From IMG/VR virus record IMGVR_UViG_3300037851_000141, positions 160,001 through 224,000 of that record: a DNA stretch of 64,000 nt, one strand, 5' to 3'. Source of the stretch: a virus. Taxonomy: Duplodnaviria > Caudoviricetes. The translations under genes were made by a program, and so were the position numbers. How positions within the stretch are numbered: the stretch's first letter is position 1; each line of letters opens with the position of its first letter. Shown here in pieces: positions 3,639-47,710 of this stretch. The notes below the pieces were generated by a model, which was not told where the DNA came from, searched no databases, and saw only the letters and a list, made by a program, of their open reading frames with translations.

Positions 3639-4670
3639 ATGTATATCAGTCTGAATCCTTGTCATTCTCAAGAGTTGATTGATGATGTTCTGGCAGTTAT
3701 TGGTGTAGAAGATTTATATGAATTCTATGCTAAATGGTCAGAATCACATAGGTATTTCCATAACTTAGATCATTTATATAGTATTGTAATGGCTGTACAT
3801 GATAAATATAAAAATGATGAACATACGTATGTAGTTTATATGTTGGCCGCGATGTTCCACGATATTGTATATGAACCAAATAGAACAGATAACGAAGTAA
3901 AGAGTGTAGAAGTATTTAATCATTATGTCAATCCATTAGACTTATCCAAGAAAACAATAGATGAAGTCTGTTCTTTGATCTTGGCAACTGCGGATATGAA
4001 TGATGATAACGATTTCAACCAGATGGATCGAAAAATCTTAACAGAAACCTCCATCAGCAAACTCATTGATTACGAACACAAAATCGCTAAAGAATATCAG
4101 TATTTAGATTATCCAACTTATAAGAAAAATCGTATTGAATTCTTAACAAAATGTCTGACTAAGTATCCTAATTTGGCTCCATTAATCGATTATGTACAGA
4201 ATAGAAAAATCTCTGTGGGGTGTTATTTCGGAACCTTCAATCCATTTCACGTAGGGCATTATAATATCTTAGAAAAAGCCAATAAGTTATTTGATAAAGT
4301 TGTTGTTGTTTTAGGGATGAATCCAGATAAATCATATGATCATACTATGAATACTCGGCTAACAACGCTCAAGAATACACTAAAATATTACGAAGTTGAT
4401 GATATGGGCGCTGGAACGCAAGTACATTATATGAATAACATGATTGCGTCTGGTATGTATTCATTGGTGACTGCGATAAAAGGACTAAGAAATGAACGGG
4501 ATTTGGTTGATGGCTTTGAATCAGAATATTGGTCAAAGAAACTCGGTAATTATAATGTTGTTTATCTATCATGTGATGAACAATATAAAAATGTTTCTTC
4601 AAGAGGAATCAATATGTTAAACCGATATGATGCTCGTAAGGCTGAACAGTTAATTTTTAAACCAAAATGA
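3639..4670 (+). CDS. HD-domain / cytidyltransferase-like (CoaD/NadD-type) fusion
   Basis: HNLDH..FHDIVY HD motif; GTFNPFHVGH HIGH motif; C-terminal SSR. Confidence 0.75.
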   Translation: MYISLNPCHSQELIDDVLAVIGVEDLYEFYAKWSESHRYFHNLDHLYSIVMAVHDKYKNDEHTYVVYMLAAMFHDIVYEPNRTDNEVKSVEVFNHYVNPLDLSKKTIDEVCSLILATADMNDDNDFNQMDRKILTETSISKLIDYEHKIAKEYQYLDYPTYKKNRIEFLTKCLTKYPNLAPLIDYVQNRKISVGCYFGTFNPFHVGHYNILEKANKLFDKVVVVLGMNPDKSYDHTMNTRLTTLKNTLKYYEVDDMGAGTQVHYMNNMIASGMYSLVTAIKGLRNERDLVDGFESEYWSKKLGNYNVVYLSCDEQYKNVSSRGINMLNRYDARKAEQLIFKPK

Positions 4671-7214: not shown

Positions 7215-7853
7215 ATGTTCCATCGACATAAGCATGAACACTTTTTCACTTGTACCTTGGATGATATAGGTTGTCCAGAATTTCGTGTAAAAACTGAACA
7301 TGGTCCAAAATCATCTTCGTTTTATTATACAAGAGATGGTTACGGTGATAAAATTAGACCTTATCCAAAACACGTTCAAGTTGTTGTAAAGCGATGTTCG
7401 TGTGGTGATATTACATTACGTTGTTCAGATGGTTCTACAGATTTTTTAATAGACCATGATTATGCTGTTGCCAAAGTGTTACAATTAAAGAAAATAGCAG
7501 ATCAAAAAGAAGAAGAACGATTGTTGAATATTTGTAATCCTGACTATCTTAAAGTTAAAATGTTGGAAGAAGAACTAAAAAACAAAGATAAAATAATAAA
7601 TGAAAAATTGAATAAGATTGATGCTCTGGAAGAAAAAATAAAAGCAATCATCCAAGATAATCAAGCCAAATCAAAGATATTAACAGAAGTTCAAGAGCAT
7701 ATTCAAGCAGTAAAGAAAATCAAGATTAAAGATGAAAAAGTAAAAGAAATACTTAAAGACATTTTTTACGAAATTGATATGCTAAAAGCCACGAAAAATG
7801 AATCTCCAATTATCAAACCATCTTATGAAATGATTGATAAAATACTTGCTTGA
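7215..7853 (+). CDS. hypothetical coiled-coil protein
   Basis: ORF; K/E-rich heptad C-terminus. Confidence 0.7.
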   Translation: MFHRHKHEHFFTCTLDDIGCPEFRVKTEHGPKSSSFYYTRDGYGDKIRPYPKHVQVVVKRCSCGDITLRCSDGSTDFLIDHDYAVAKVLQLKKIADQKEEERLLNICNPDYLKVKMLEEELKNKDKIINEKLNKIDALEEKIKAIIQDNQAKSKILTEVQEHIQAVKKIKIKDEKVKEILKDIFYEIDMLKATKNESPIIKPSYEMIDKILA

Positions 7854-18709: not shown

Positions 18710-18946
18710 ATGAAACAAACTCTAAAAGAACAACTCGAAAATGCCTGGAATCAAGTTCAACAAACTAATGATCCAAGCCCTAAATACCTCGTCGGTGATA
18801 TCAAAGCAGGATTAAAAGCAGTTATAGAATTAATCCAAGAAGGTATAGATCAAAAACAATTGGCTAAAGTCGAAGGTACTATGAATAAATTGATCGAAAT
18901 AAGTAATAAACTGGATCAACTTGAAAAGAAAATAGGACTTGACTAA
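18710..18946 (+). CDS. hypothetical protein
   Basis: TATAAATA at 18687-18694, GAGG RBS. Confidence 0.65.
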   Translation: MKQTLKEQLENAWNQVQQTNDPSPKYLVGDIKAGLKAVIELIQEGIDQKQLAKVEGTMNKLIEISNKLDQLEKKIGLD

Positions 18947-18966
18947 TTTCAGAACTGTGGTAGAAT
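18939..18966 (+). promoter_or_regulatory. sigma70-type promoter of tRNA cluster
   Basis: TTGACT-N16-TAGAAT followed by AAGAGCGT/ACGCTCTT hairpin. Confidence 0.65.
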
Positions 18967-19006
18967 AAGAGCGTTGAAAACAATATCTTTGACGCTCTTA
19001 TATCTT

Positions 19007-19020
19007 GGCAACTGAGAGTT
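19007..19020 (+). promoter_or_regulatory. tRNA-operon leader motif GGCAACTGAGAGTT (copy 2)
   Basis: Identical to 15798-15811. Confidence 0.6.
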
Positions 19021-19024
19021 TTAT

Positions 19025-19095
19025 CAGGCCGTGGGATAGCGGTAGTCTACTAGTCTTGGGCACTAGGGGTGAGGGTTCAACTCCCTCCGGTCTGA
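19025..19095 (+). tRNA. tRNA-Pro(TGG)
   Basis: CAGGCCG/CGGTCTG, CTAGT-CTTGGGC-ACTAG. Confidence 0.88.
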
Positions 19096-19100
19096 TATTT

Positions 19101-19172
19101 GTTGCGGTGACTGAATGGCTAGGTGGCGGTTTGCAAAACCGTTCTATGTGGGTCCGAATCCCACCCGTAACT
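19101..19172 (+). tRNA. tRNA-Cys(GCA)
   Basis: GTTGCGG/CCGTAAC, loop TTGCAAA, U73. Confidence 0.88.
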
Positions 19173-19175
19173 TAT

Positions 19176-19322
19176 TAATATGTTGATAGTTGACTTAAGC
19201 AATGACAAGAGAAATTGCCGTGGAAACCTCAGACTATAGCTAAGTTAGAGGGAATAACATGCGACTGCGAGCCGGAACTCCAGAGTGGGAGAATGCCCCA
19301 ACCTTTTTTCTTCAACATATTA
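19176..19322 (+). ncRNA. unassigned 147-nt closed-stem RNA, copy A
   Basis: TAATATGTTGA/TCAACATATTA terminal stem; internal hairpins GCAAT/ATTGC, CCTC/GAGG, CTCC/GGAG. Confidence 0.55.
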
Positions 19323-19332
19323 TTTCTTTTCT

Positions 19333-19479
19333 AAATAGAACACTGATAGGTTGACGAATCGAAAGAAATATTAAAACCGTCAATCGTTAACTTTGTCATG
19401 ACATTGTTGGTGTGTAGAACGACTATCTAAGGGGTAGGTAAGGAGTATGACCTTGTAATATTTTTTCGGTGTTCTATTT
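19333..19479 (+). ncRNA. unassigned 147-nt closed-stem RNA, copy B
   Basis: AAATAGAACACTGA/TCGGTGTTCTATTT 14-bp terminal stem; hairpins TTGACG/CGTCAA, TCGTT/AACGA, TAAGG/CCTTG. Confidence 0.6.
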
Positions 19480-19482
19480 TAT

Positions 19483-19569
19483 GCCCGTATGGTGGAATTG
19501 GCAGACACACAAGACTTAGGATCTTGTGCCTTAACTGGCGTGTAGGTTCAAGTCCTACTACGGGTACCA
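19483..19569 (+). tRNA. tRNA-Leu(TAG)
   Basis: CAAGA-CTTAGGA-TCTTG, long variable arm, CCA. Confidence 0.95.
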
Positions 19570-19573
19570 ATAT

Positions 19574-19646
19574 GGGGACTTAGCTCATCTGGTAGAGCGT
19601 TTGCCTTGCACGCAAAAGGTGAGGGGTTCGACTCCCCTAGTCTCCA
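19574..19646 (+). tRNA. tRNA-Ala(TGC)
   Basis: GGGGACT/AGTCTCC with G3-U70, loop CTTGCAC. Confidence 0.95.
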
Positions 19647-19695
19647 TTATATAAATTGTTTGGACTTACCGAAATAGTATGATATAATAATATCT

Positions 19696-20337
19696 ATGAA
19701 AAATAAACTTTGTCTTAAATGTAAAAAAGAATTTCCACAAACCATAAGAATTGATGGGAAAAGACGCAATCTAAACAATAGAAAATATTGCTTAGACTGC
19801 TCTCCATTTGGTTCACATAATACAAGAGAACTACAAGATAATGTGTCCAGTATAAATTTATGTAAACGTTGTGGTCGTCATTTAAGATGTAAAAGGCGAA
19901 GATATTGTCAATGGTGTACACTTAAAAGAAAAAGAGATAGTATTTCGAAAAATGTTTATAATTTATTAGGTAATAGATGCTGGATTTGTAATGAATGTTC
20001 TACAAATGATGATTATACCAATTATCTTTTTTGTTTACATCACGTATATCCAGAATATAAAAAATATAAACTATCTAAAGATAATATGAGTAGACTTTCG
20101 CATTATCAATTAAAAGAAGAAATAAAAAAATGTGTTTGTTTATGTCATAATTGTCATAGTACGTTTCATTATACTGATTTGATAACACAAAATCAAATAA
20201 TTACAGTATATAATAATTTTTGGTTAAATATTGTTGATGATGATATGAATAAACTTTTTAAATTATATGACTATGAAAACATCAAAGATAAAAATCAAAA
20301 AGATTTATCATATCCAGAAATCGAATATTATATATAA
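19696..20337 (+). CDS. free-standing HNH homing endonuclease within tRNA cluster
   Basis: Multiple CxxC pairs; LHHVYP..CVCLCHNCHSTFH. Confidence 0.8.
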   Translation: MKNKLCLKCKKEFPQTIRIDGKRRNLNNRKYCLDCSPFGSHNTRELQDNVSSINLCKRCGRHLRCKRRRYCQWCTLKRKRDSISKNVYNLLGNRCWICNECSTNDDYTNYLFCLHHVYPEYKKYKLSKDNMSRLSHYQLKEEIKKCVCLCHNCHSTFHYTDLITQNQIITVYNNFWLNIVDDDMNKLFKLYDYENIKDKNQKDLSYPEIEYYI

Positions 20338-20343
20338 TTTCAT

Positions 20344-20427
20344 TCAACGGTGCCCCGAATGATAAGGGACTCGGCTGTTAACCGAGCGGGAGAAATCCCA
20401 TTGCTGGTTTGACTCCAGCCCGTTGAG
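20344..20427 (+). tRNA. tRNA-Asn(GTT) with long variable arm
   Basis: TCAACGG/CCGTTGA, G73, CTCGG-CTGTTAA-CCGAG, GGGA-GAAA-TCCC variable hairpin. Confidence 0.8.
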
Positions 20428-20432
20428 TTAAA

Positions 20433-20450
20433 AGTCCTTGCAAAAGGACT
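20433..20450 (+). terminator. hairpin (possible terminator or processing stem)
   Basis: AGTCCTT-GCAA-AAGGACT. Confidence 0.4.
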
Positions 20451-20457
20451 AAAAATC

Positions 20458-20586
20458 AAAGACTGAATGCCTGAAAGTTTACATTAGGATCTCTTGGTAG
20501 GTGGTTCAATTCCACCCAACCCGCCTCGCGTGGTTGTAGCTCACCGGCAGAGCAGGAGAGTTAACTTTCAACTTTTGTCAGTCTTT
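20458..20586 (+). ncRNA. YrlA-like Y RNA (circularly permuted tRNA mimic)
   Basis: Terminal stem AAAGACTGA/TCAGTCTTT; order T arm (GGTGG-TTCAATT-CCACC), looped acceptor (CAACC/GGTTG), D arm (GCTC-ACCGGCA-GAGC); Ro60 gene in window. Confidence 0.8.
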
Positions 20587-20590
20587 TTAT

Positions 20591-20662
20591 GTTGATGAAG
20601 CTAAATGGCGCAGCGAAGGTTTCATAAGCCTTTTCAAGTGGGTTCGATTCCCACCATCAACA
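20591..20662 (+). tRNA. tRNA-Met/Ile2(CAT)
   Basis: GTTGATG/CATCAAC, loop TTCATAA. Confidence 0.85.
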
Positions 20663-20685
20663 TTAAAACCATAGAAAGGTATATT

Positions 20686-20835
20686 ATGAAGATTCTCGCG
20701 TTTATGATATTTGTGTTGATGTTATGTGGATGTAGTAGTCGTCCAGGGATTATTGCTAATATGTCATCTGATGCTGGTATAAATTGGGATGATGGTGACG
20801 TTATTCCGATTTGTATTTGGTCGTGGACGTTTTAA
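20686..20835 (+). CDS. small lipoprotein
   Basis: MKILAFMIFVLMLCGC signal peptide with lipobox; AAAGG RBS (true start 20686). Confidence 0.6.
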   Translation: MKILAFMIFVLMLCGCSSRPGIIANMSSDAGINWDDGDVIPICIWSWTF

Positions 20836-20841
20836 TTTTAT

Positions 20842-20913
20842 GAGGGTTGTAGTCTAGTGGTAAAACGCTTCGTTGTGGCCGAAGATACTCGGGTTCGATT
20901 CCCGGCAGCCCTA
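20842..20913 (+). tRNA. tRNA-His(GTG), G-1 encoded, A73
   Basis: AGGGTTG/CAGCCCT, CTTCG-TTGTGGC-CGAAG. Confidence 0.88.
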
Positions 20914-20922
20914 TTTTTATAA

Positions 20923-20994
20923 CCTCCCATAGTTTAATGGTTAGAACGCAGTCCTGATACGGCTGATATCACTGTTCAAATCAGTGTGGGAGGA
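20923..20994 (+). tRNA. tRNA-Ile(GAT)
   Basis: CCTCCCA/TGGGAGG, loop CTGATAC. Confidence 0.9.
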
Positions 20995-21190
20995 CTTTTA
21001 TAATATTTATAGTAAAAATAAATGTATATATTATCGGTACTGATATTTTACTTAGTTTTATTTCTACATTATAATCAACCAAATATATAAAAATTTTATC
21101 GTTTTATTTATATAATTGACGACAGAAAATATTTATCAAAAACTTAACACTCATGATATAAATACATGTATAACCAGAAATGGAGATAAG

Positions 21191-21349
21191 ATGAAAGATA
21201 CCAAAGATAATGAAGTAAGAATAAGACTAACAAGTGAAGATAAAAACTTGATTGAAACTAATGCCAAGAACTTCGGATTTGTCTCAGTAAGTGAATACCT
21301 TAGATATATAGGTAAAAACTGTAAAGAAATCAAAATAAAAATCCAATGA
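21191..21349 (+). CDS. ribbon-helix-helix (MobC-like) small protein
   Basis: EVRIRLTSEDKNLIETNAKNFGFVSVSEYLRYIG; GGAG RBS. Confidence 0.7.
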   Translation: MKDTKDNEVRIRLTSEDKNLIETNAKNFGFVSVSEYLRYIGKNCKEIKIKIQ

Positions 21350-22956
21350 TAAAATCTTACTCGTTCTACTGCTCTGACCTTAATAAGAAAAAGACAGATT
21401 TACTCTTACAAAAAGCAGTAGAATTGAGAGATTTTAAGAATCAAATATCTAAAGAAGTTTGTTCTAACTTTAGTTATTTCAACGAGATAAGTAAATTTGA
21501 CTGGATAACTTATTTCAGAACTCAACTTCCAAATTGTAATAATCAAGATATAAGTAATGCTATTTCAGATGTTTATGATAGTTATGAAAATAAACGAAAT
21601 AAGTTTATACAAAATATCTCATTCAAAGTCCAAAAAGAAATAAAATATACTTATTACAAAAATAACGGTAAAACTTATAAAAAAGGTGATGTTCGAGATG
21701 CTGAAGTTATCCTTGGAAGTAATAAGTTTACTAAATGCCTTACCTACTTATGTAGATACTGGAATCCTAACTTTATATCCTGGCTTGAAGAAAATAAAGA
21801 CCTTGATGAAAAGAAAGCCCAACTTCGTAATGATGCTCTGTCTTTGTTTAAGAAATATCCTGAACGAATAACGGTTCTTATTATCTCTCATAGAACCTCA
21901 GTAATAAACGAACTTGTTGAACATCCAATAACGTTCAACTCACTTAGTTTCAGAAGTTGTAATGAACTAAGAACTAAAATACTTAATAGAAATAAGAATC
22001 TCCAGGCTATATTTGGTGCTATTATAACTCTTGGAGGACAGAAAACATCATCAGGCAAACTCCATATTCCTGTAAAATATAGTTACTCTCATCATGGAAA
22101 TATAGATGACTATGATAAATCACCAAACGCTAAAGGGGTCAAAACTATATCATATACAGTCTGCTTCTATAAAAATAAAATAAGATTTGTATTAGGTAAA
22201 ACTGTAGATGATGAACTTCCGATAACTGACAAGAACGAATATTATGGAATTGATCTAAACGTTAAACATAATCTCTTCTGTGATAAACATGGGCAAACTA
22301 TAGATTATGATAGACGTATATTTCAAGATTATGTTAACTTCCTCAAAACCTTAGACTCAAAACATCAATATAAAAAACAACATAATCTCAATCTGGAATT
22401 AAGTAAAAAAGACCAAGACAAGTATGACACTTGGACTTCTCGTATAAAAGATATGTTGAAACGTAAATCTAATCAATTAGTCAAACAAGCAATAACTCAA
22501 GGCAAAAATCACATTGTAATGGAAGACCTTGGACAATTCTGTAAGTCATTTTCAAGATCAGAAGACTTTGACGGTTTCAAGTATTCTAGACTCATAAAGA
22601 TGTTAAATCTATCTGACTTGAAAAACATTGTCAAGTCAATTGCGAATAAACACGGAATTCAAGTCTCATTTGTTCATTCTCATTATACTAGCCAAACTTG
22701 CTCAAAATGTGGATTCATCTCAAGAGAAAATCGTAAATCGCAAGAAACTTTCTCTTGTCTTGAATGTGGACATACTAATAATGCTGATTCCAATTCTGCT
22801 GAAAATATAGAAAATAGAATGTCTGTAGATGATCTACAGGTCAAACTTCTATTGTCAGATAATGGTTCATGCTATCCTAAGAAACTAGGGAAGGCAACTA
22901 TTATCTCTATATTACATGATTACTATTCTCAAAAAGAAATAAACAAATTAGAGTGA
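21346..22956 (+). CDS. tnpB: TnpB / Cas12f-like RNA-guided nuclease (536 aa)
   Basis: RuvC GIDLN, VMEDL, NADSNSA; zinc finger CSKC..CLEC; YTSQTC. Confidence 0.9.
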   Translation: MIKSYSFYCSDLNKKKTDLLLQKAVELRDFKNQISKEVCSNFSYFNEISKFDWITYFRTQLPNCNNQDISNAISDVYDSYENKRNKFIQNISFKVQKEIKYTYYKNNGKTYKKGDVRDAEVILGSNKFTKCLTYLCRYWNPNFISWLEENKDLDEKKAQLRNDALSLFKKYPERITVLIISHRTSVINELVEHPITFNSLSFRSCNELRTKILNRNKNLQAIFGAIITLGGQKTSSGKLHIPVKYSYSHHGNIDDYDKSPNAKGVKTISYTVCFYKNKIRFVLGKTVDDELPITDKNEYYGIDLNVKHNLFCDKHGQTIDYDRRIFQDYVNFLKTLDSKHQYKKQHNLNLELSKKDQDKYDTWTSRIKDMLKRKSNQLVKQAITQGKNHIVMEDLGQFCKSFSRSEDFDGFKYSRLIKMLNLSDLKNIVKSIANKHGIQVSFVHSHYTSQTCSKCGFISRENRKSQETFSCLECGHTNNADSNSAENIENRMSVDDLQVKLLLSDNGSCYPKKLGKATIISILHDYYSQKEINKLE

Positions 22957-23006: not shown

Positions 23007-23123
23007 TACTCCTTAGTTCAATGGTAGAACATCGGCCTTGATCGCTATAGGAAGCAATGTAGTTCAAGTCTACAAGTGATCACCATGGAGCCGAGAATGC
23101 TGGTTCGAATCCAGCAGGAGTAA
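23007..23123 (+). tRNA. interrupted tRNA, best reconstructed as tRNA-Gln(TTG), with 46-nt mini-tRNA insert at 23040-23085
   Basis: TACTCCT/AGGAGTA, D arm GTTC/GAAC, TCGGC/GCCGA stem; CTT+TGGA after removal of insert. Confidence 0.75.
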
Positions 23124-23909: not shown

Positions 23910-23993
23910 GGGGCTGTACGCAAACTGGAAAAGCGGCTTGTTTTCTTAGAATTCAAGTGTTTTTGAAGGTTCGATTCCTTTCCAGCCCCACCA
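23910..23993 (+). tRNA. atypical tRNA-Leu(TAG)-like gene with expanded anticodon arm
   Basis: GGGGCTG/CAGCCCC-A-CCA; CTTG-TTTTCTTAGAATT-CAAG; extra C in T stem. Confidence 0.55.
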
Positions 23994-29063: not shown

Positions 29064-30695
29064 ATGGCTAACAAGAATCTTTTCCAATCATCTGCTGGTA
29101 TGGCTCCAATCACTGACGCTCTTAATGAGGCTGGTGGTGTAGCTTATAACCTCTCTGATAAAGCGGCCCTTGCTCAGATGGTGGTTACTGGTTGCTTTAA
29201 TCAGACTTTTTATGCTGATGCCAAAACTCAGCTTGATACTGTGTTGAAGCTGGCAAACAAGGTTCCAACCAAGTTTGTCGCTCAACTGGCGGTATATGCT
29301 CGCACTAATGCTTATATGAAGGATTCTCCTGCGGTTCTTGCTGCTGTGCTGGCAAGTCGTGATATGGGAATGCTGAAGTCTATTTTTGCCACTGTAATTG
29401 ATAATGGCAAGATGGTTCGCAACTTCTGCCAAATCCTTCGTTCTGGTGTTGTTGGTCGCAAGTCATTTGGAACTGCTGCTAAGAAACTGGTTCAAAACTG
29501 GCTGATTAACCGTAAGCCAGAGCAGTTGTTCCGTGATATTGTCGGCAACGATCCTTCTCTGTCAGATGTTATTAAGATGACTCACCCTCATCCAAAGAAC
29601 AAGACTCAAGAGTTTATGTTTGCCTATATCTGTGGTCGAGTCAACATTGAAGTCAAGGGTAATACTTTGACTGCTACCAAGGTGTATAATGGCAAGACTC
29701 AAACCATCAAGTCTGAGAATATTCCAGATATTGTCAGAGATTTTGAGATTTTCAAGGCGAAGAAACTTGCTGGAAAGAGTGCTGGTGAGACTCCAGATGT
29801 GCCTTTCCAAATGTTGTCTTCATTGAATATGGGTACTGCTGAGTGGACTGAAATGGCTCGCAATGGGTCTTGGACGTTTACTCGCATGAATCTGAACAAT
29901 TTCTTGAAGTATGATGTGTTCAAGGATAAAAAGATGGTTGATATGATTGCTGATCGACTTTCTTCATCAACCGAAGTGAAGAAGTCCAGAGTATTCCCAT
30001 ATCAGCTACTTACTGCGTTCAAGTCAGTATCTTCAGAAATGCCAACCAAGATCACCAACGCACTTCAAGATGCTATGGAGATTGCTGTTGGGAACATTCC
30101 TGATCTTGACGGTAAGAAAATCTATGTTTGTGTTGATACCAGTGGAAGCATGCAGAGTGCTGTAACTGGTGATCGTGGCGGTGGTACTACTGCGACAACT
30201 TGTGTTGATGTAGCTGGACTTGTAGCCTCTGCGATTCTGCGTAAAAATCAAGATACCAGCGTAATTCCATTTGATACTGACGTTCACTTGGTTTCTCTTA
30301 ATTCACGGGATAGTGTCATGACCAACGCACAAAAGTTGGCTCTGCGTGGGGGTGGTACTGATTGTTCTTGTGCGCTTCGGTATCTTAACAACATTGAGGC
30401 TAAAGGGGATGTCGTTATCTTTGTCTCTGATAATGAGAGTTGGGCTGATCGTGGATATGGTCGTGGAACCGGAACGCACAACGAATTCCTGAAATTCCGT
30501 AAGCGTAATCCAAATGCGGTTCTGATCAATATCGACATTCAGCCAAACACTTATACTCAAACCAAGGAATCACCTTATATCTTCAATATTGGCGGATTCT
30601 CTGATCAAGTATTTGAGATTATCGCTGCCATTGCCAAAGATAGACTCAATAAGGATTGGTTCGTGACTGAGATTGAAAAAGTTAAGATTGGCTGA
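29064..30695 (+). CDS. rsr: Ro60/Rsr TROVE-domain RNA-binding protein with vWA domain
   Basis: NEAGGVAY..LAQ..TG..NQTFY TROVE start; VDTSGSM, GGTDCS, SDNESW, GGFSD; AAGGAAGGA RBS before 29064. Confidence 0.93.
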   Translation: MANKNLFQSSAGMAPITDALNEAGGVAYNLSDKAALAQMVVTGCFNQTFYADAKTQLDTVLKLANKVPTKFVAQLAVYARTNAYMKDSPAVLAAVLASRDMGMLKSIFATVIDNGKMVRNFCQILRSGVVGRKSFGTAAKKLVQNWLINRKPEQLFRDIVGNDPSLSDVIKMTHPHPKNKTQEFMFAYICGRVNIEVKGNTLTATKVYNGKTQTIKSENIPDIVRDFEIFKAKKLAGKSAGETPDVPFQMLSSLNMGTAEWTEMARNGSWTFTRMNLNNFLKYDVFKDKKMVDMIADRLSSSTEVKKSRVFPYQLLTAFKSVSSEMPTKITNALQDAMEIAVGNIPDLDGKKIYVCVDTSGSMQSAVTGDRGGGTTATTCVDVAGLVASAILRKNQDTSVIPFDTDVHLVSLNSRDSVMTNAQKLALRGGGTDCSCALRYLNNIEAKGDVVIFVSDNESWADRGYGRGTGTHNEFLKFRKRNPNAVLINIDIQPNTYTQTKESPYIFNIGGFSDQVFEIIAAIAKDRLNKDWFVTEIEKVKIG

Positions 30696-37790: not shown

Positions 37791-37907
37791 GCTGGTTTAG
37801 CTCAGGGGTAGAGCAGTTGTTTTGCTGGAATATAGGAAAGCAAGACGGTTCGAGTCCGTCATTCTGGAATAAACAACAGGTCGGGGGTTCAAATCCCTCA
37901 ACCAGCA
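37791..37907 (+). tRNA. interrupted tRNA, best reconstructed as tRNA-Thr(TGT), with 45-nt mini-tRNA insert at 37825-37869
   Basis: GCTGGTT/AACCAGC, GCTC/GAGC D arm, GTTGT/ACAAC stem, AGGTC variable loop; TTTG+TAA after removal. Confidence 0.8.
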
Positions 37908-38351: not shown

Positions 38352-38426
38352 TGCGGGATGGTGTAACGGTTAGCATAGCGGCCTCATAAGCCGCAGATTT
38401 AGGTTCAAATCCTGATCCCGCCACCA
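38352..38426 (+). tRNA. tRNA-Met(CAT), initiator-like
   Basis: 1:72 T-C mismatch, GCGGC-CTCATAA-GCCGC, CCA. Confidence 0.85.
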
Positions 38427-38428
38427 AT

Positions 38429-38490
38429 AATCCGAATGCTGATAAGATTACATATCATTAAAAACCAATCTTATCAAATTTTGTCGGATT
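38429..38490 (+). ncRNA. short Y-RNA-like RNA 2
   Basis: AATCCGA/TCGGATT, ATGC/AATTTTG internal loop, TGATAAGATT/AATCTTATCA. Confidence 0.7.
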
Positions 38491-38503
38491 TTATTTCTGA
38501 GTT

Positions 38504-38575
38504 AATACCGAATGCTTGTTGAGAGTACATTTCCTTGTAAGAAACCAACCCCTCTCAACCACTTTTGTCGGTATT
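38504..38575 (+). ncRNA. short Y-RNA-like RNA 3
   Basis: AATACCGA/TCGGTATT, GTTGAGAG/CTCTCAAC, loop TACAT-TTC-CTTGTAA-GAA. Confidence 0.7.
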
Positions 38576-38583
38576 TTTCTTTA

Positions 38584-38693
38584 TGAGGGTTCGAATTCAA
38601 GTTGCTGGTGGAATTCCCACGACCTACCTACCAGTAGTAAAGAGCTTGATAGTAGAATAGCTAAGCGCGGCCAGTCGTGACCTCAAAACTGGC
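38584..38693 (+). ncRNA. unassigned structured, possibly pseudoknotted RNA
   Basis: TGAGG/CCTCA, TCAAG/CTTGA, 10-bp TTGCTGGTGG/CTACCAGTAG, GCCAGT/ACTGGC. Confidence 0.4.
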
Positions 38694-38698
38694 GTTAC

Positions 38699-38776
38699 GC
38701 TCTCATCGTCTAGCCCGGTTAGGACATTTGGTTTTCATCCAAAAAACGTGGAGTTCAAATCTCCCTGAGAGTACCA
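38699..38776 (+). tRNA. tRNA-Glu(TTC)
   Basis: GCTCTCA/TGAGAGT, TTTGG-TTTTCAT-CCAAA, CCA. Confidence 0.88.
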
Positions 38777-38778
38777 AT

Positions 38779-38841
38779 GAAGCGAATGCAGATAAGATTA
38801 CATTCTGGAAAAAATAAAATCTTATCAAATTTTGTCGCTTC
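38779..38841 (+). ncRNA. short Y-RNA-like RNA 4
   Basis: GAAGCGA/TCGCTTC, GATAAGATT/AATCTTATC, AATTTTGTC. Confidence 0.7.
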
Positions 38842-38847
38842 TTATAT

Positions 38848-39026: not shown

Positions 39027-40343
39027 TTAGTTATCAACTGTTATCACTTTGGTTGTTGGGTCAAGATGGACTCTAAGCTCATCTCCGTCCAGAGTATAGA
39101 AACCAGTTTCCTTCCAGTAGAAACCCTTCCTATTTAACTCTAACTTACGTAATTTGGGAGGTATGTCGGGTAAGGTCTGTTCGTGGTTGCACGACGCATT
39201 ATAGTCTGCGTCGTCAGAAAAGCCACAACCTCGACAGATGTAAATCTTACCCTTCCTATTACTCTTACGTACCAATCCGCAACAACTACACCGTTGACTT
39301 CTGTAAGTACAAGACTGTAAAGTGAAGTGGACCCCAGCCTCTTCACAGCGGCTACTTACTTTGTCTCTGATGAGTGTGTTTGTCCAGTGGGACATCTTAC
39401 GACTCGTTCTACGACCATAGTTTATGTTATTTATCTCTTCCAACTTTAGATGCTTGATGTTCATTAAGTTTAGTTGGTTGACTGACCAATTAATGAAGTT
39501 CTCACGGTGAGATTGGGCTTTAAGGAAGGCTCGACTTCCTTTACGTTTGGCACTCAATTTATCTATAATAGAATCTAATGAGTGTCCATGAGAGTCTGTC
39601 TTTGGTGTTGTTTGTCTGTCCGACAACGATATTATTGTCAATTTACCTTGGTCAGCACCAACATCAACACCTTTGGTCTTAGGTGGAACATCTTTTTCCC
39701 ACCGTAGATTTACGAAGTTGGTTCCGATGAGGAACGAGTTGAGCATCTTCCAATCAGCATATTTTGAGTTATGTTTGTGGAATCTTATAGGTAGTTTGAT
39801 ATGACCATATTCATCACCGATACATTTGAGTCTGAGGACTCCGTTGAAATATGATGTATTTTGGGTTGGTTCCCAATCTATACATTTGCTTGATAATTCT
39901 GGGTTGATATTACTAAGATCAGGCTTTAGAGCCTGGAATTTCTGTAGATTTTGATATAGTCTCTCATTATAAACTCCTTCATCACAGAGTTTATTGAATA
40001 CCCATAATCTTCGTCTACGGACTTCCGTAGTTGCTGATATACATCCAGCAACCTGAGTTACCAGAGAGGATAATGCTCGGGCTGATAGTGGAGTTTGAAT
40101 ACCAAACAATTTGTAATCTATGAAACTTGGAGTTTCAAGGTTATCATCTTTGATAGAGAACTGATGCTCTGTAGATACTCCAGTTTCTTTATTTGTAGTA
40201 GTCCACTTGTATCCATGTTCCCAAATAAGGTCAACTATGAGTTGCCCAACTCTACGATACTCGGCAATAAACTTGTTCAACTTGTCAAGTTTATTCTTAT
40301 TTGTATCTTTAAGAGAATGAGAAGTTGACCGTATAGTAGTCAT
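39027..40343 (-). CDS. tnpB: TnpB RNA-guided nuclease (438 aa)
   Basis: RuvC GADQG, LEEIN, DADYNAS; YRSQRCSCC..CRGC. Confidence 0.88.
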   Translation of the reverse strand: MTTIRSTSHSLKDTNKNKLDKLNKFIAEYRRVGQLIVDLIWEHGYKWTTTNKETGVSTEHQFSIKDDNLETPSFIDYKLFGIQTPLSARALSSLVTQVAGCISATTEVRRRRLWVFNKLCDEGVYNERLYQNLQKFQALKPDLSNINPELSSKCIDWEPTQNTSYFNGVLRLKCIGDEYGHIKLPIRFHKHNSKYADWKMLNSFLIGTNFVNLRWEKDVPPKTKGVDVGADQGKLTIISLSDRQTTPKTDSHGHSLDSIIDKLSAKRKGSRAFLKAQSHRENFINWSVNQLNLMNIKHLKLEEINNINYGRRTSRKMSHWTNTLIRDKVSSRCEEAGVHFTLQSCTYRSQRCSCCGLVRKSNRKGKIYICRGCGFSDDADYNASCNHEQTLPDIPPKLRKLELNRKGFYWKETGFYTLDGDELRVHLDPTTKVITVDN

Positions 40344-44722: not shown

Positions 44723-47710
44723 CTATAAATGTTCTGGTCGTTTATCTACAACATTATCAACTTGTTTCATATTTGATTTGACATCCCTTGCAGCTTGTTT
44801 TATCCCTGTTGATGGGAAGCTACCGTTTCTGCCAGTAGATTGCCAAGCAGCATCTAATCCAGCCGAAGCTAATTTAGATAATGTGTCAAATATTCCAGAA
44901 CCAGTATATCCGGCAACTTTTTTCAATCTGTTTAAGGCATTTTTAGCCGCAACTTTAAGATTAACAGAGCCACCAACGATTGTAGCTGGCGTTTTTCTCT
45001 TAACCATAGATTTTGTAGCAGGGTCAAATTTATAGTAATGTTTCATATTTGCTATATGTTTTTTTCTAATCATTTCAGAGTTAAAGTCATTACCAACTGG
45101 CCAAGATTCAATTATATCTGGGTTGAATCTGGCCGCCGCTAATGTTTCTATTGAATTTTGTAGATTCTTTTTCTGTTTATATGTAAGTATATCCCAATCG
45201 GCATTCTGATATTTTTCAATGTTTTCTCTGACATTTCTGAAATATTTTTTAACTGCTTCATCTTGGATTTTATCTTCACGTTGGTCTTGTTTTTTGTCTT
45301 CTGTTCCACTATATCCCCAACCACGATCATCTCTCCATTCAATATCGGCTGAGTTTAACTTATCTTCAATTGTTGCTGATGATTTCTTTGGTCTTAATTT
45401 TTCATTTTGAGATGGATTGCCAGCGAATGAAAGATATTCAAGTCCATTTTTAGAATTTAGAGCGGCAATAAGGCTACGACCAATGAATGTTTTTAAGTCA
45501 TCGCCAGTTATTGATTTAACTGCTTTAGGTACTTGTCCTTCTTTATCTGACCAGTATGGATTTTTCCCAATTTTATATAATTTATAACCAGCTTTGGATA
45601 ATTTATCTTCAACTGACGTATCATCCATAATCATATTTGATGTTGAAGGGTATGAATTTGATGCTAATGGATCTTCTTTTAAGTCAAGTTCTTGTTTTTG
45701 AGTCTTATCTACGCCAGCTACAACTTTATCTTGTTCTTCCATTTTTTGTTTATCGTTTAATAGTTGATGGGCTTTAAGTACCATTCTTCCATTTAATATA
45801 CCAACATCGGACAAGTCAAGTTTCTTATTTTCTGTAAGTTTTCTTGCCTCGTTAAGTTGTTCTTTTGGTTGAGCTACATATTCCCATTTTCCCAAATCAT
45901 CATCGTATGAAAATCCTGTTGTTTCCATAGCAGTTGATATCTGTTCAGGTCCAACAATAGGATCACCAACATCATCAGTCTTTATATAATCAAGATTTCC
46001 AAGAGCAGCAAGATAAGAACGACCAGTTAATGACATTTTGTTTTCATTTTTTGTATATAGTTGTTCGGGTATGGTCATGCTTTGATTGAGCCATACATTT
46101 TTATCTGAATACCAGTCATAAAGAAGGTTATTCATTTGTTCTAATACGTTTTCGGACGACATTACTGGAATCCATAGTGATTTTTCTTCGTCCAAGTTAA
46201 ACTTATTAGCCTCTTTTATATTATGAGCTAAAGCAAGAATGAATCTGGCTTGATAATCTTTTATTTTTTCAGTATCTTGTGGGTTTGATAGTGGGACGGT
46301 GATATATCCTAATCCATCTCCTGTTGCTGTGGTATTTCCAGTAGTTCTTATTGGTGTTGATTCTGGATCATTAGAAATAGCAGGTTTTGGTAATGAAGAG
46401 TCGCCATCAATTGATCTTTGGGTTTCAATTGGTGGTAATTCTGGTTTTTTTTCGGCATCTTGATTATCAGTTCCACCACCGCCACCACCAGCATTATCAT
46501 CTTTCTTTTTAGATACTTTAATCCATTTCTTAGATTCATCATCATATGTATATCCAAACTTATACATCATTTTTTCAATACCATAACGGTCAATTATATA
46601 CGCTTTACCACCGGGTTCTTTTTCAAGTGCTTTTTTTTGTTGGTGTTTGGATGCTAATACTTCTCTTGCTATTTGTATTTTAGAATAACGCTTCCATTTT
46701 TCAAGAAGGTTTGTATATTTTTCTGGAAGATCAAGATCGGCCATGTTATTATCAGTTTCATTGAAGAAATTTATAGCATGTGATGATATTGATATTCTTT
46801 CTTCTTTTGTCATTTCATCTGGATTATACCCCAATTTAGTTAAAGCTCTATTACATGCTTCATAACAATCAGAATATGTAAGGAATCTTGTTCGTCCGAT
46901 TGATTCTTTTAGTTCTTGAGTTTCATTTTCATTTTTTTCTTTTTTAGCTATTTTTATAATAATGTCTTCAAGTTCTTCTTCTGACATTGAATTTAGATCA
47001 TCGATATCATACCCATTATCTTCAAGAGTCCGAGCAAGATCACCCATAGGTCCACCCCATAGGTCTTCTTTAGCTTGTTGATATTTATTACGTTCTATGT
47101 CTTTCTGACGATATTCCCCATCTTGAGTCATCTGAACAGTCCAAGGTTTATAATTACTTACTTTTGGAGCAACCATAACAATAGCAGGATCACCATTTTT
47201 ACTTCCTATTTGAGCAACGCCATCACCCGTAGAAAGGTTATTTGGTACAGCGCCATAAACTCTTGTACCTTGGCGACTCTTACCACCAAGCATGCCATCG
47301 CCTAATCCACCATATCCTGGAGTTGATCCGCCACCAGTTGAGCCTCTACCAGCAACACTATATGCTAATCTTGAACCAGAGTTTGGACCATACCCAGCAG
47401 TAGAAAGCATAAACATATCAACATATTCTGATAACAATTCCATATTATCATTTTGGTGTTTATCGAATATAGAGTTGATTGCTGTATTTTTTTCTTCTTC
47501 AGTTAATTCGCCATAAACCGGGTGATTATATACGAAATGCTTTATTTTCTTCCAAGTATCATTTTCTTCCAAGTGAGAATTTGGAGTATTTGCGTAGACT
47601 GCTTTCATTTGTTCTTTAGCATCAGTTTCGGTGGCATGTGTACCTAAAACCTTACCAGAAACGGTTTCAACAGCCCATTTACCGTCTTTTTTTACGATTT
47701 TGTATGGCAT
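44723..47710 (-). CDS. large (995 aa) putative internal virion protein
   Basis: TATAAATA (minus) 47736-43, GGAG RBS; LEE/LKES/LNE/LTE motifs; repeated G-Y/F-x-Y-DD..KW units. Confidence 0.8.
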   Translation of the reverse strand: MPYKIVKKDGKWAVETVSGKVLGTHATETDAKEQMKAVYANTPNSHLEENDTWKKIKHFVYNHPVYGELTEEEKNTAINSIFDKHQNDNMELLSEYVDMFMLSTAGYGPNSGSRLAYSVAGRGSTGGGSTPGYGGLGDGMLGGKSRQGTRVYGAVPNNLSTGDGVAQIGSKNGDPAIVMVAPKVSNYKPWTVQMTQDGEYRQKDIERNKYQQAKEDLWGGPMGDLARTLEDNGYDIDDLNSMSEEELEDIIIKIAKKEKNENETQELKESIGRTRFLTYSDCYEACNRALTKLGYNPDEMTKEERISISSHAINFFNETDNNMADLDLPEKYTNLLEKWKRYSKIQIAREVLASKHQQKKALEKEPGGKAYIIDRYGIEKMMYKFGYTYDDESKKWIKVSKKKDDNAGGGGGGTDNQDAEKKPELPPIETQRSIDGDSSLPKPAISNDPESTPIRTTGNTTATGDGLGYITVPLSNPQDTEKIKDYQARFILALAHNIKEANKFNLDEEKSLWIPVMSSENVLEQMNNLLYDWYSDKNVWLNQSMTIPEQLYTKNENKMSLTGRSYLAALGNLDYIKTDDVGDPIVGPEQISTAMETTGFSYDDDLGKWEYVAQPKEQLNEARKLTENKKLDLSDVGILNGRMVLKAHQLLNDKQKMEEQDKVVAGVDKTQKQELDLKEDPLASNSYPSTSNMIMDDTSVEDKLSKAGYKLYKIGKNPYWSDKEGQVPKAVKSITGDDLKTFIGRSLIAALNSKNGLEYLSFAGNPSQNEKLRPKKSSATIEDKLNSADIEWRDDRGWGYSGTEDKKQDQREDKIQDEAVKKYFRNVRENIEKYQNADWDILTYKQKKNLQNSIETLAAARFNPDIIESWPVGNDFNSEMIRKKHIANMKHYYKFDPATKSMVKRKTPATIVGGSVNLKVAAKNALNRLKKVAGYTGSGIFDTLSKLASAGLDAAWQSTGRNGSFPSTGIKQAARDVKSNMKQVDNVVDKRPEHL

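What the first reader, a model, noticed from the sequence alone, without database searches (positions are those of the whole stretch)
20458..20586. YrlA-type Y RNA: circularly permuted tRNA mimic embedded in the tRNA cluster
Seen: 9-bp terminal stem, then GAATGC, a second stem (GAAAGTTTAC/GTTAACTTTC), an anticodon-stem equivalent (TCTCTT/AGGAGA), and tRNA arms in permuted order: T arm, acceptor closed by a CCTCG loop, D arm. Established: bacterial YrlA RNAs have this permuted tRNA module, bind Ro60/Rsr through a stem with a GNCGAAN(0-1)G-like motif, and occur with Ro60 in some phages. Here the RNA lies ~8.5 kb from the Ro60 gene and would be missed by tRNA callers.
Basis: partly seen in the sequence, partly recalled or inferred. 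Interest (0 to 1): 0.7.

Follow-up and report, generated by a model that had tools for sequence, protein, structure and literature searches.

The report
Phage YrlA-type Y RNA in tRNA array
A 332-kb freshwater jumbo phage carries, between two of its tRNA genes, a small RNA built like a tRNA turned inside out on a long stem: a divergent member of the known YrlA class of Y RNAs, most likely the partner of the Ro60 RNA-surveillance protein that the phage encodes 8.5 kb away.

Summary
Rfam's YrlA model (RF02553) matches it end to end at 47.6 bits (E 7e-10 locally, 2e-8 over 8.3 kb). That is below the curated cut-off of 69 bits, but 27 bits above the best tandem-tRNA junction in the same array. ARAGORN and the Rfam tRNA model do not call it. 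After de-permutation in silico, ARAGORN calls a 72-nt cloverleaf.

Full-length relatives occur in other Ro60-encoding phages, including cultured Myxococcus phage Mx1, and beside a bacterial Ro60 gene, where Rfam scores 71.2 bits. Across 20 copies, 91% of cells pair and 35 of 40 pairs show compensatory changes.

In this phage clade the RNA usually lies inside the tRNA array, 5-16 kb from Ro60 and often flush against tRNAs. This suggests release by tRNA-processing enzymes. The same genome holds three short Y RNAs (38427-38843) that share the conserved stem module but lack the tRNA part.

Binding to Ro60, expression and processing are inferred, not shown.

Verdict: a real, new member of a known kind. 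Phage YrlAs have been published since 2014, and this scan has noted similar phage arrays in other genomes.

The parts
20458..20586 (+). The whole YrlA-type Y RNA as delimited by its terminal stem. The covariance-model match is 20456-20590.
   Evidence: Rfam RF02553 covers 20460-20587 at 47.6 bits, model positions 1-114 of 114. My own models R1 and R2 also match it.
20458..20466 (+). 5' strand of the 9-bp terminal stem. It pairs with 20578-20586.
   Evidence: Read directly. Helix 1 is 91-93% paired, and 7 of its 9 pairs show double changes.
20462..20471 (+). ACUGAAUGCC, the counterpart of the GNCGAAN0-1G / CGAA Ro60-contact motif. GAAUGC is nearly invariant in the family.
   Evidence: Alignments A5 and A6. 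The motif definition comes from PMC4201824. The C-to-U change is matched by G-to-A at 20580 (column pair 9/249: CG 9, GC 5, UA 5).
20472..20482 (+). 5' strand of stem 2, pairing with 20560-20570. It ends in the conserved UUACAU (20479-20484), the YUAY element.
   Evidence: Helix 2 is 95% paired and all 8 pairs show double changes. YUAY is described in PMC4201824.
20490..20499 (+). UCUCUU, one strand of the anticodon-stem equivalent (partner AGGAGA, 20554-20559), followed by GGUA, the variable-loop equivalent.
   Evidence: Helix 4 is only 69% paired overall, and the three inner pairs covary well.
20500..20516 (+). T-arm mimic: a 5-bp stem with loop UUCAAUU (U54 U55 C56 A57 A58; G53-C61 is kept).
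   Evidence: Helix 5 is 98% paired.
20517..20536 (+). Closed acceptor-stem mimic: 5 bp, a bulged U, then 3 bp with a CUC loop.
   Evidence: Helix 6 is 97% paired, with variable length and sequence across relatives.
20537..20553 (+). UA (the U8/A9 equivalents) followed by the D-arm mimic GCUC / ACCGGCA / GAGC (A14, G18 G19, A21).
   Evidence: Helix 7 is 99% paired.
20571..20586 (+). 3' internal-loop strand ACUUUUG, containing the conserved UUUUGUC (20573-20579), and the 3' strand of the terminal stem.
20590..20663 (+). tRNA-Met(CAU), starting 3-4 nt after the terminal stem. Its RNase P site would set the 3' end of the Y RNA; this is an inference.
   Evidence: The same flush arrangement is seen in L001 and L034.
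20343..20428 (+). Upstream neighbour: an atypical 86-nt tRNA-like gene (ARAGORN calls it Asn-GUU with a long variable arm). A 7-bp GCAA hairpin follows at 20433-20450.
   Evidence: The Rfam tRNA model does not match it even at E up to 10.
29064..30695 (+). Ro60/Rsr homologue (TROVE + vWA), the presumed protein partner. The gene caller's start is 29007.
   Evidence: Pfam vWA_Ro60 and TROVE. PDB 2nvo (Rsr), E 6e-14. About 8,000 homologues, many named 60 kDa SS-A/Ro. PHROG 850, RNA-binding protein.
38427..38492 (+). Short Y RNA 1 (YrlB-like). It has the same terminal stem / CGAAUGC / stem 2 / UUACAU / UUUUGUC module without a tRNA-like domain, and directly follows tRNA-Met 38352-38426.
   Evidence: Own genome scan, sequence, fold z-score -3.8, R2 score 36.3 bits.
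38503..38576 (+). Short Y RNA 2 (YrlB-like).
   Evidence: z-score -4.0; 29.9 bits.
38777..38843 (+). Short Y RNA 3 (YrlB-like), directly following tRNA-Glu 38699-38776.
   Evidence: z-score -3.3; 40.9 bits.

Best explanation
The stretch is a gene for a roughly 130-nt phage Y RNA of the YrlA class.

Shown:
- The RNA can fold into a long bipartite stem: a 9-bp terminal stem, an AUGCC/ACUUUUG internal loop, and an 11-position second stem.
- That stem carries a circularly permuted tRNA look-alike: T arm, closed acceptor hairpin, UA, D arm, all closed by a short anticodon-stem equivalent.
- The fold is conserved with compensatory changes in Ro60-encoding phages and beside a bacterial Ro60 gene.

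Inferred:
1. The RNA is transcribed with the tRNA array. I found no + strand terminator in 18900-21400. It would be released by RNase P cutting at the 5' end of the flush downstream tRNA-Met and by 3' processing of the upstream tRNA-like gene.
2. The conserved GAAUGC/UUUUGUC stem module binds the phage Ro60 ring (29064-30695).
3. The L-shaped tRNA-like module, whose elbow nucleotides are kept, recruits a tRNA-binding effector or a host exoribonuclease. Known Y RNAs tether PNPase, and this phage has no PNPase/RNase PH domain of its own. The RNP would thus gate or retarget Ro60 for surveillance or decay of structured RNAs during infection.
4. The three short Y RNAs carrying the same stem module would compete for, or alternately load, the same Ro60.
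For: Covariance-model evidence:
- Rfam YrlA matches full length at 47.6 bits, E 7.3e-10 in 301 nt and 2e-8 in 8.3 kb. The match is on the + strand only.
- The null class, tandem-tRNA junctions, scores at most 20 bits on Rfam YrlA. On R2 such junctions give only core-limited partial matches.
- De-permuting the sequence and adding a borrowed anticodon loop makes ARAGORN call a 72-nt tRNA. The native order gives none.

Comparative evidence:
- On 15 copies, 91.4% of cells pair and 36 of 42 pairs show double changes. On 20 copies the figures are 90.9% and 35 of 40. In both, 0 of 500 shuffles reach the observed values, and slid controls pair at about 40%.
- Model R2, trained on phage copies only, finds untrained full-length copies: L034:855-1004 (86.6 bits), L032:4440-4573 (86.4 bits) and Myxococcus phage Mx1 45165-45300 (75.5 bits).
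- The L032 copy lies 430 nt upstream of a bacterial Ro60 gene and reaches Rfam's cut-off, 71.2 against 69 bits.

Co-occurrence with Ro60:
- Ro60 is present in the window's genome, L001, L034, L032, Mx1, and 4 of the 5 IMG/VR records hit by the pattern search. The fifth is a 36%-complete fragment.
- In this clade the RNA lies 5.4 kb (L001), 8.5 kb (window), 9.0 kb (L034), 11.6 kb (Mx1) and 16.2 kb (L007) upstream of Ro60 on the same strand.
- It sits flush against tRNAs on both sides in L001 and L034.

Other:
- A groundwater contig variant differs at 6 places in the RNA. All lie in loops or preserve pairing (G-C to G.U; G.U to A-U).
- Published work on the class: Ro60 binding, tRNA-type modifications, an L-shaped crystal structure and PNPase tethering (PMC4201824, 10.1101/312249, PMC12135203).
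Against: - The Rfam score is below the curated gathering score (47.6 against 69 bits).
- The motif is ACUGAAUG rather than GNCGAAN0-1G.
- Positions 15:48 read C:A, not a Levitt-type pair, and the last variable-loop base is a purine.
- The RNA lies 8.5 kb from Ro60, outside the 4-kb criterion of Chen et al.
- The outer pairs of the anticodon-stem equivalent are poorly supported (helix 4, 69% paired). An alternative weak V hairpin (AUUAGG/CUUGGU) appears in the MFE fold.
- Alignments A5 and A6 were fitted to the model, which inflates the pairing counts.
- I have no direct evidence for transcript ends or Ro60 binding.
Confidence: 0.88

Rival explanations
1. It is a chance or decayed tandem-tRNA junction or tRNA pseudogene pair: the T arm of one tRNA followed by the D arm of the next. 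Chen et al. warned about this false-positive class.
For: - It lies inside a tRNA array.
- Such junctions do hit YrlA-type models. R2 scores 38.4 bits at the Mx1 tRNA-Lys/tRNA-Asn junction and 20-22 bits at two junctions in the window. R1 gave 33 bits at L014.
Against: - With R2, junction hits cover only the core (model positions about 29-101); the full-span L014 hit came from the single-sequence R1. On Rfam YrlA the junction scores 20 bits, against 47.6 full length here.
- There is no anticodon arm, second acceptor strand or CCA on either side.
- T and D arms are separated only by a closed 20-nt hairpin.
- The flanking stems carry the GAAUGC/UUACAU/UUUUGUC module, which is shared with three tRNA-free hairpins 18 kb away and with relatives in other genomes, and which covaries.
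Confidence: 0.02
2. It is a circularly permuted tRNA gene, as in Cyanidioschyzon. In that case the long stem is excised, the ends are ligated, and the acceptor loop is opened to give a working tRNA.
For: - The layout is formally that of a permuted pre-tRNA, as noted in 10.1101/312249.
- The de-permuted sequence passes ARAGORN.
- The phage encodes an RNA ligase, a CCA-adding enzyme and a Thg1-like enzyme.
- M. smegmatis YrlA is cut by RNase P and receives CCA (PMC4201824).
Against: - The native RNA has no anticodon loop. The stem beyond the anticodon-stem equivalent is the conserved Y RNA module, also found on RNAs that have no tRNA part.
- No bulge-helix-bulge motif or splicing endonuclease was identified.
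- The acceptor mimic has a bulge and varies from about 5 to more than 10 bp among relatives.
- It co-occurs with Ro60.
Confidence: 0.03
3. It is a genuine YrlA-like RNA that does not work through the phage Ro60. For example, it could act as a decoy or sponge for host tRNA-binding enzymes or tRNA-targeting defence nucleases, or merely as a processing punctuation mark in the array.
For: - It is uncoupled from Ro60 by 8.5 kb here, by 5-16 kb in relatives, and by about 83 kb on the opposite strand in L021's record.
- Some Ro60-encoding relatives showed only short forms, or nothing, within 10 kb (L002, L003, L033).
- The tRNA elbow nucleotides are conserved.
Against: - The most conserved non-tRNA sequence is the stem module that corresponds to the published Ro60 contact region.
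- Every sufficiently complete record carrying the RNA also carries Ro60.
- There is no anticodon loop, so it cannot be bait for anticodon nucleases.
Confidence: 0.07

Closest known systems
YrlA (Rfam RF02553). Bacterial and mycobacteriophage Y RNA-like A: Salmonella Typhimurium and M. smegmatis YrlA (Chen et al. 2014, PMC4201824); crystal structure of the tRNA-like domain (Wang et al. 2018, 10.1101/312249, PDB 6cu1).
   Same: - Terminal 5'/3' stem with a GAAUG-containing motif.
- YUAY element (UUAC).
- Permuted order T arm, closed acceptor stem, UA, D arm.
- Conserved elbow nucleotides.
- Same strand and same genome as a Ro60 gene.
- Full-length covariance-model match.
   Different: - The score is below the Rfam gathering cut-off.
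- ACUGAAUG replaces GNCGAANG.
- Positions 15:48 read C:A.
- It lies 8.5 kb from Ro60, not within 4 kb.
- It is embedded in, and flush with, a tRNA array rather than in an rsr-yrl(-rtcBA) operon.
- The phage has no RtcB.
YrlB of Salmonella and M. smegmatis, and Yrl1/Yrl2 of Thermus phage phiLo (PMC12135203).
   Same: They share the Ro60-binding stem with a CGAA-type motif. The three short hairpins at 38427-38843 are the phage's counterparts of these. phiLo shows that a phage Ro60 binds phage-encoded Y RNAs and host PNPase.
   Different: The RNA of this finding additionally carries the tRNA-like module. The phiLo Ro60 is only 24% identical to this one.
Deinococcus radiodurans Yrn1 with Rsr and PNPase (the RYPER complex).
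   Same: A modular Y RNA. The stem binds Ro60 and the distal module tethers an effector. It has a T-loop-like element.
   Different: Yrn1 has a different arm order, lacks a full D arm, and is thought to have evolved independently (PMC4201824).
Circularly permuted tRNA genes (Cyanidioschyzon merolae; Soma et al. 2007, as cited in 10.1101/312249).
   Same: A closed acceptor stem, and 5'/3' ends that pair beyond the anticodon stem.
   Different: Those are processed into real tRNAs with anticodon loops. Here no anticodon loop exists and the stem is a conserved protein-binding module.

Membership tests
YrlA (RF02553) | Match to the curated covariance model at or above the gathering score (69 bits). 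| tested here: not met
   The score is 47.6 bits, full length, E 7.3e-10 locally and 2e-8 over 8.3 kb. Other phage copies score 33-59 bits. A homologous bacterial copy, L032:4444-4570, scores 71.2 bits. This is an operational threshold rather than a structural feature.
YrlA (RF02553) | tRNA-like module in the permuted order T arm, closed acceptor stem, D arm, enclosed by a stem formed from the flanks. | tested here: met
   Direct reading, Rfam alignment, ARAGORN on the de-permuted sequence, covariation of helices 5-7 at 97-99% paired.
YrlA (RF02553) | Conserved tRNA tertiary-interaction nucleotides: the UA linker, A14, G18G19, A21, U54U55C56, A58, G53-C61. | tested here: met
   All are present at 20537-20553 and 20500-20516. 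The list of conserved features comes from 10.1101/312249.
YrlA (RF02553) | A Levitt-type 15:48 pair (G:C or A:U), with a pyrimidine at the last variable-loop position. | tested here: not met
   The window has C15 (20544) and A48 (20499). In alignment A6, read by eye, 11 of the 14 copies in which both positions could be read have G:C or A:U. The groundwater variant has U at 20544, giving U:A.
YrlA (RF02553) | GNCGAAN0-1G motif near the 5' end, within the Ro60-binding stem. | tested here: inconclusive
   The window has ACUGAAUG, so GAAUG is kept while positions 1 and 3 differ. The C-to-U change is compensated across the helix (column pair 9/249). The three short Y RNAs have CGAAUG.
YrlA (RF02553) | Encoded near a Ro60 orthologue on the same strand. 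Chen et al. used 4 kb or less as a high-confidence filter. | tested here: inconclusive
   Same genome and same strand, but 8.5 kb away. Clade relatives lie 5.4-16.2 kb away, while other phages (L006, L017) and the bacterium L032 lie within 0.1-1.5 kb.
YrlA (RF02553) | Bound by Ro60/Rsr in vivo, and carrying tRNA-type modifications (pseudouridine 55, dihydrouridine). | not testable with these tools
   This needs RIP or EMSA plus CMC or alkali primer extension. No RNA run holding the stretch was listed.
Canonical tRNA (RF00005) | A contiguous cloverleaf with an anticodon loop and free acceptor ends. | tested here: not met
   There is no ARAGORN or Rfam tRNA call on the native sequence.

The most novel reading that the evidence does not exclude
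In this clade of large phages the Y RNA genes have moved from the Ro60 operon into the tRNA array. There they would be matured by RNase P and tRNA 3'-processing as 'honorary tRNAs', producing one tRNA-mimicking and several short Y RNAs in step with the phage tRNAs. The Ro60-Y RNP would then act as a phage-run quality-control or protection device for the phage tRNA pool, working with the neighbouring Thg1-like and CCA-adding enzymes and with host PNPase, for example during host attack on tRNAs. The array location would also be living support for the proposed birth of YrlA from tandem tRNA transcripts.
Probability: 0.2. Interest if true: 0.6.

Novelty: new member of a known kind. Interest (0 to 1): 0.38.

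Why it matters
- **Annotation gap.** Rfam's curated threshold and the usual 'within 4 kb of Ro60' rule both miss Y RNAs in large phages. All 12 phage copies I scored with Rfam fell below the cut-off, at 30-59 bits.
- **Full partner set.** This phage's Ro60 now has a candidate set of RNA partners: one YrlA-type and three YrlB-type RNAs.
- **Maturation route.** Y RNA genes sitting flush against tRNA genes suggest a simple, testable maturation route through tRNA-processing enzymes. This also bears on the hypothesis that YrlA arose from dimeric tRNA transcripts.
- **A cultured test system.** The same unannotated RNA lies in the tRNA array of Myxococcus phage Mx1, so the Ro60 partnership and its role in infection can be tested at the bench.
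- **Limits.** The RNA class, its tRNA mimicry and its presence in phages are published, so this extends known work and is not a new principle.

Tried and rejected
- blastn of 20300-20700 against GenBank phages found no match.
- Back-translated Ro60 peptides in IMG/VR and an exact 22-mer of the T arm and acceptor gave no close relatives there. Relatives came instead from the protein search and a degenerate RNA pattern. 19 of the 25 pattern hits were tandem tRNAs or other non-Y sequences and were discarded by eye.
- The genome search with RF02553 on the own genome returned nothing at E <= 0.001, although cmscan finds the site. I treat this as a limit of that tool's first-look filter, not as evidence.
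- MFE folding: the z-scores are similar on both strands and the MFE fold lacks the D arm. I did not use it as evidence.
- The MAFFT plus RNAalifold alignment (A2) recovered only the terminal, T and D stems. It was replaced by model-based alignments.
- Expression: no RNA holder was listed for 19000-22000, so I could make no statement on transcription.
- Laying contigs: the X4 contig matches 20372-20559 with 19 differences and then carries 528 other letters before resuming at 20589. Some of its acceptor-stem changes are not compensated. It is a single contig at depth 4.4 and could not be fetched, so it is left unexplained.
- L033, a Ro60-encoding relative, had no Y RNA hit within 10 kb. The records behind L002, L003, L033 and L034 are not held, so I could not search them whole.
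- No RtcB and no RNase PH/PNPase domain was found in the phage genome. An rsr-yrl-rtcBA type operon and a phage-encoded PNPase partner are therefore rejected.
- A literature search for a reported anti-defence role of phage Ro60 found nothing usable.
- Complex prediction was not used, because it scores protein-protein pairs only.

Full report
**Observation.** The window is bases 160001-224000 of a 331,849-bp IMG/VR virus record, 92% complete by CheckV. Its only near-identical holder is a freshwater metagenome.
- a 9-bp terminal stem (20458-20466 with 20578-20586);
- GAAUGC at 20465-20470;
- a second stem (20472-20482 with 20560-20570, one U.U mismatch);
- UCUCUU/AGGAGA (20490-20495 with 20554-20559);
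- a T arm at 20500-20516 with loop UUCAAUU;
- a closed acceptor-like hairpin at 20517-20536;
- UA at 20537-20538;
- a D arm at 20539-20553.

ARAGORN finds 20 tRNAs in the window but nothing here. The Rfam tRNA model also finds nothing here.

**Statistical test.** At gathering thresholds Rfam reports only tRNAs. With E-value thresholds, the YrlA model RF02553 matches 20460-20587 on the + strand over its whole length (positions 1-114). The score is 47.6 bits, with no non-canonical pair flagged. E is 7.3e-10 in 301 nt and 2e-8 in 8.3 kb.

Chen et al. (PMC4201824) warn that tandem tRNAs can mimic YrlA. In this same array the best such junction (tRNA-Leu/tRNA-Ala, 19511-19632) scores 20 bits, E 1.9.

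I rearranged the sequence to acceptor-5', D arm, stem, a borrowed anticodon loop, stem, variable loop, T arm, acceptor-3'. ARAGORN then calls a 72-nt cloverleaf, while the native order gives none. MFE folding was uninformative, with similar z-scores on both strands.

**Protein partner and context.** The ORF at 29064-30695 (+) is a full-length Ro60/Rsr homologue:
- Pfam vWA_Ro60 and TROVE;
- PDB Rsr 2nvo at E 6e-14 and phiLo Ro60 at E 3e-11;
- thousands of homologues, many named 60 kDa SS-A/Ro.

Around it lie a Thg1-like enzyme, an HNH endonuclease, two TnpB-like genes, a phosphoribosyltransferase, YggL, a radical-SAM protein, a CCA-adding-type nucleotidyltransferase and IF3. The phage has no RtcB and no RNase PH/PNPase domain. 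It has one RNA ligase elsewhere in the genome.

**Relatives.** Close DNA relatives are absent from GenBank phages and IMG/VR. Ro60 homologues of 49-73% identity lie on syntenic contigs of large phages (DUF6899, PRTase, Ro60, CCA enzyme, IF3).
- L001 carries a YrlA hit flush between two tRNAs, 5.4 kb upstream of Ro60.
- A degenerate pattern (TGAATG ... T loop ... GTAGCNCA) found 25 IMG/VR loci. By eye, six were YrlA-like and the rest were tandem tRNAs or other non-Y sequences.
- Rfam scores the six and their extra copies at 30-59 bits, all below the cut-off and mostly in tRNA-rich stretches.
- Four of these five records encode Ro60. The fifth is a 36%-complete fragment.

**Structure conservation.** I built model R1 from the window sequence with the structure above and aligned its hits.
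- On 15 copies, 91.4% of cells pair, against 57% in shuffles and about 40% when partners are slid. 36 of 42 pairs show double changes, and 0 of 500 shuffles reach these values.
- R2, built from these 15 phage copies, found untrained full-length copies. L034:855-1004 scores 86.6 bits, lies flush between two tRNAs and is 9 kb upstream of Ro60. L032:4440-4573, in a 5.4-Mb bacterial contig, scores 86.4 bits and lies 430 nt upstream of Ro60, after a tRNA array. Rfam scores the L032 copy at 71.2 bits, above its cut-off.
- In cultured Myxococcus phage Mx1, R2 finds a 75.5-bit copy at 45165-45300. It lies in an unannotated gap of the tRNA array, 11.6 kb upstream of the TROVE gene.
- On 20 copies the counts hold: 90.9% of cells pair and 35 of 40 pairs show double changes.

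One caveat applies: these alignments are fitted to the model, which inflates the pairing counts. The anticodon-stem equivalent is the weakest helix (69% paired), and only its three inner pairs covary cleanly.

The conserved primary sequence is (C/U)GAAUGC, UUACAU (the YUAY of Chen et al.), the T and D arms, and UUUUGUC.

**Deviations of this copy.**
- The motif reads ACUGAAUG, not GNCGAANG. The C-to-U change is matched by G-to-A on the partner strand, and 5 of 20 copies have the U-A version.
- Positions 15:48 are C:A. Most relatives have G:C or A:U.
- A groundwater contig variant has U at position 15. Its other five differences lie in loops or preserve pairing.

**Other Y RNAs in the genome.** A script over the whole genome looked for GAATG ... 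TTGTC flanked by complementary bases. It found the long RNA and three short hairpins at window 38427-38492, 38503-38576 and 38777-38843.
- The first directly follows tRNA-Met and the third directly follows tRNA-Glu.
- Each has CGAAUGC, UUACAU and UUUUGUC but no tRNA module.
- Fold z-scores are -3.3 to -4.0.
- No Rfam family matches them. R2 scores them at 30-41 bits.
- Similar short forms occur in L001, L002, L003/L004, L021 and L034.

I had found them independently before reading it. The genome holds exactly one long form.

**Mechanism.** What is shown is a conserved fold, a family link to YrlA, and co-occurrence with Ro60. The following steps are inferred from the literature on the class and from the gene layout:
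- co-transcription with the array, since no + strand terminator was found in 18900-21400;
- release by RNase P at the flush downstream tRNA-Met and by 3' processing of the upstream tRNA-like gene;
- binding of the stem module by the phage Ro60;
- recruitment of a tRNA-binding factor or host exoribonuclease by the tRNA-like elbow;
- competition from the short forms for the same Ro60.

**Novelty.** YrlA RNAs, their tRNA mimicry and their presence in 22 phages were published in 2014. Iyer et al. 2021 note TROVE proteins 'with a tRNA-like partner' in some jumbo phages. A phage Ro60-Y RNA-PNPase complex was described in 2025. This scan has also repeatedly noted Y-RNA-like elements in phage tRNA arrays of other genomes.

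This is therefore a new, divergent member of a known kind. The modestly new points are:
- systematic sub-threshold Rfam scores for phage copies;
- displacement 5-16 kb from Ro60 into tRNA arrays;
- flush tRNA neighbours;
- a cultured phage (Mx1) in which all of this can be tested.

Noticed in passing
window 38427-38492, 38503-38576, 38777-38843 (+): Three short Y RNA-like hairpins (YrlB-like). They share the CGAAUGC / UUACAU / UUUUGUC stem module of the long RNA, two of them sit directly after tRNAs, and no Rfam family matches them.
   Followed up: yes
window 20343-20428 (+): ARAGORN calls an 86-nt tRNA-Asn(GUU) with a 3-bp D stem, no GG in the D loop, a long variable arm and T loop UUUGACU. 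The Rfam tRNA model does not match it even at E up to 10. It is an atypical or non-canonical tRNA-like gene just upstream of the Y RNA, followed by a 7-bp GCAA hairpin at 20433-20450.
   Followed up: partly
window 23007-23123 and 37791-37907 (+): Rfam tRNA matches of 117 nt (59.3 and 58.4 bits). These are tRNA genes interrupted by inserts of about 45 nt. ARAGORN reads 37792-37868 as tRNA-Ser instead. Earlier notes of this scan treat them as tRNA-shaped mini-introns.
   Followed up: no
window 23910-23990 (+): An Rfam tRNA hit (34.7 bits) that ARAGORN does not list.
   Followed up: no
window 21346-22956 (+) and 39027-40343 (-): Two TnpB / Cas12f-like (OrfB_IS605 + TNB domain) genes inside the tRNA / RNA-metabolism island. 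An HNH endonuclease gene at 19696-20337 lies directly upstream of the tRNA-like gene.
   Followed up: no
window 20687-20835 (+): A small ORF starting MKILAFMIFVLMLCGCSS..., which looks like a lipoprotein signal with a lipobox. It sits between tRNA-Met and tRNA-His, so mRNA and tRNAs appear interleaved in one transcription unit.
   Followed up: no
L039 (Myxococcus phage Mx1 OR576727.2) 2518-2631, record 45517-45630: A second Y-like RNA with the stem module and T arm but no D arm. It overlaps an annotated 40-aa 'hypothetical protein' CDS (45524-45646) directly after tRNA-Ile, so that CDS is probably a misannotation.
   Followed up: partly
L032 124-4047 (5.4-Mb bacterial contig): A dense array of at least 14 tRNA genes directly upstream of a canonical YrlA and Ro60 gene, with further Y-like hits at 206-349, 4575-4657 and 7587-7695. 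The 'tRNA array + Y RNAs + Ro60' arrangement therefore also exists on a bacterial chromosome, possibly in a prophage or island.
   Followed up: partly
window 20559/20589, contig of run X4: An aquatic-metagenome relative matches up to 20559, then carries 528 unrelated letters before resuming at the tRNA-Met. This could be an insertion or rearrangement inside the 3' part of the Y RNA gene in that relative. It rests on a single low-depth contig.
   Followed up: no
window 38577-38698 (+): A 122-nt ORF-free spacer between short Y RNA 2 and tRNA-Glu, containing a GGGUUCGAAUUC T-loop-like string. Its fold is not better than shuffles (z-score -0.35), and I could not assign it.
   Followed up: partly
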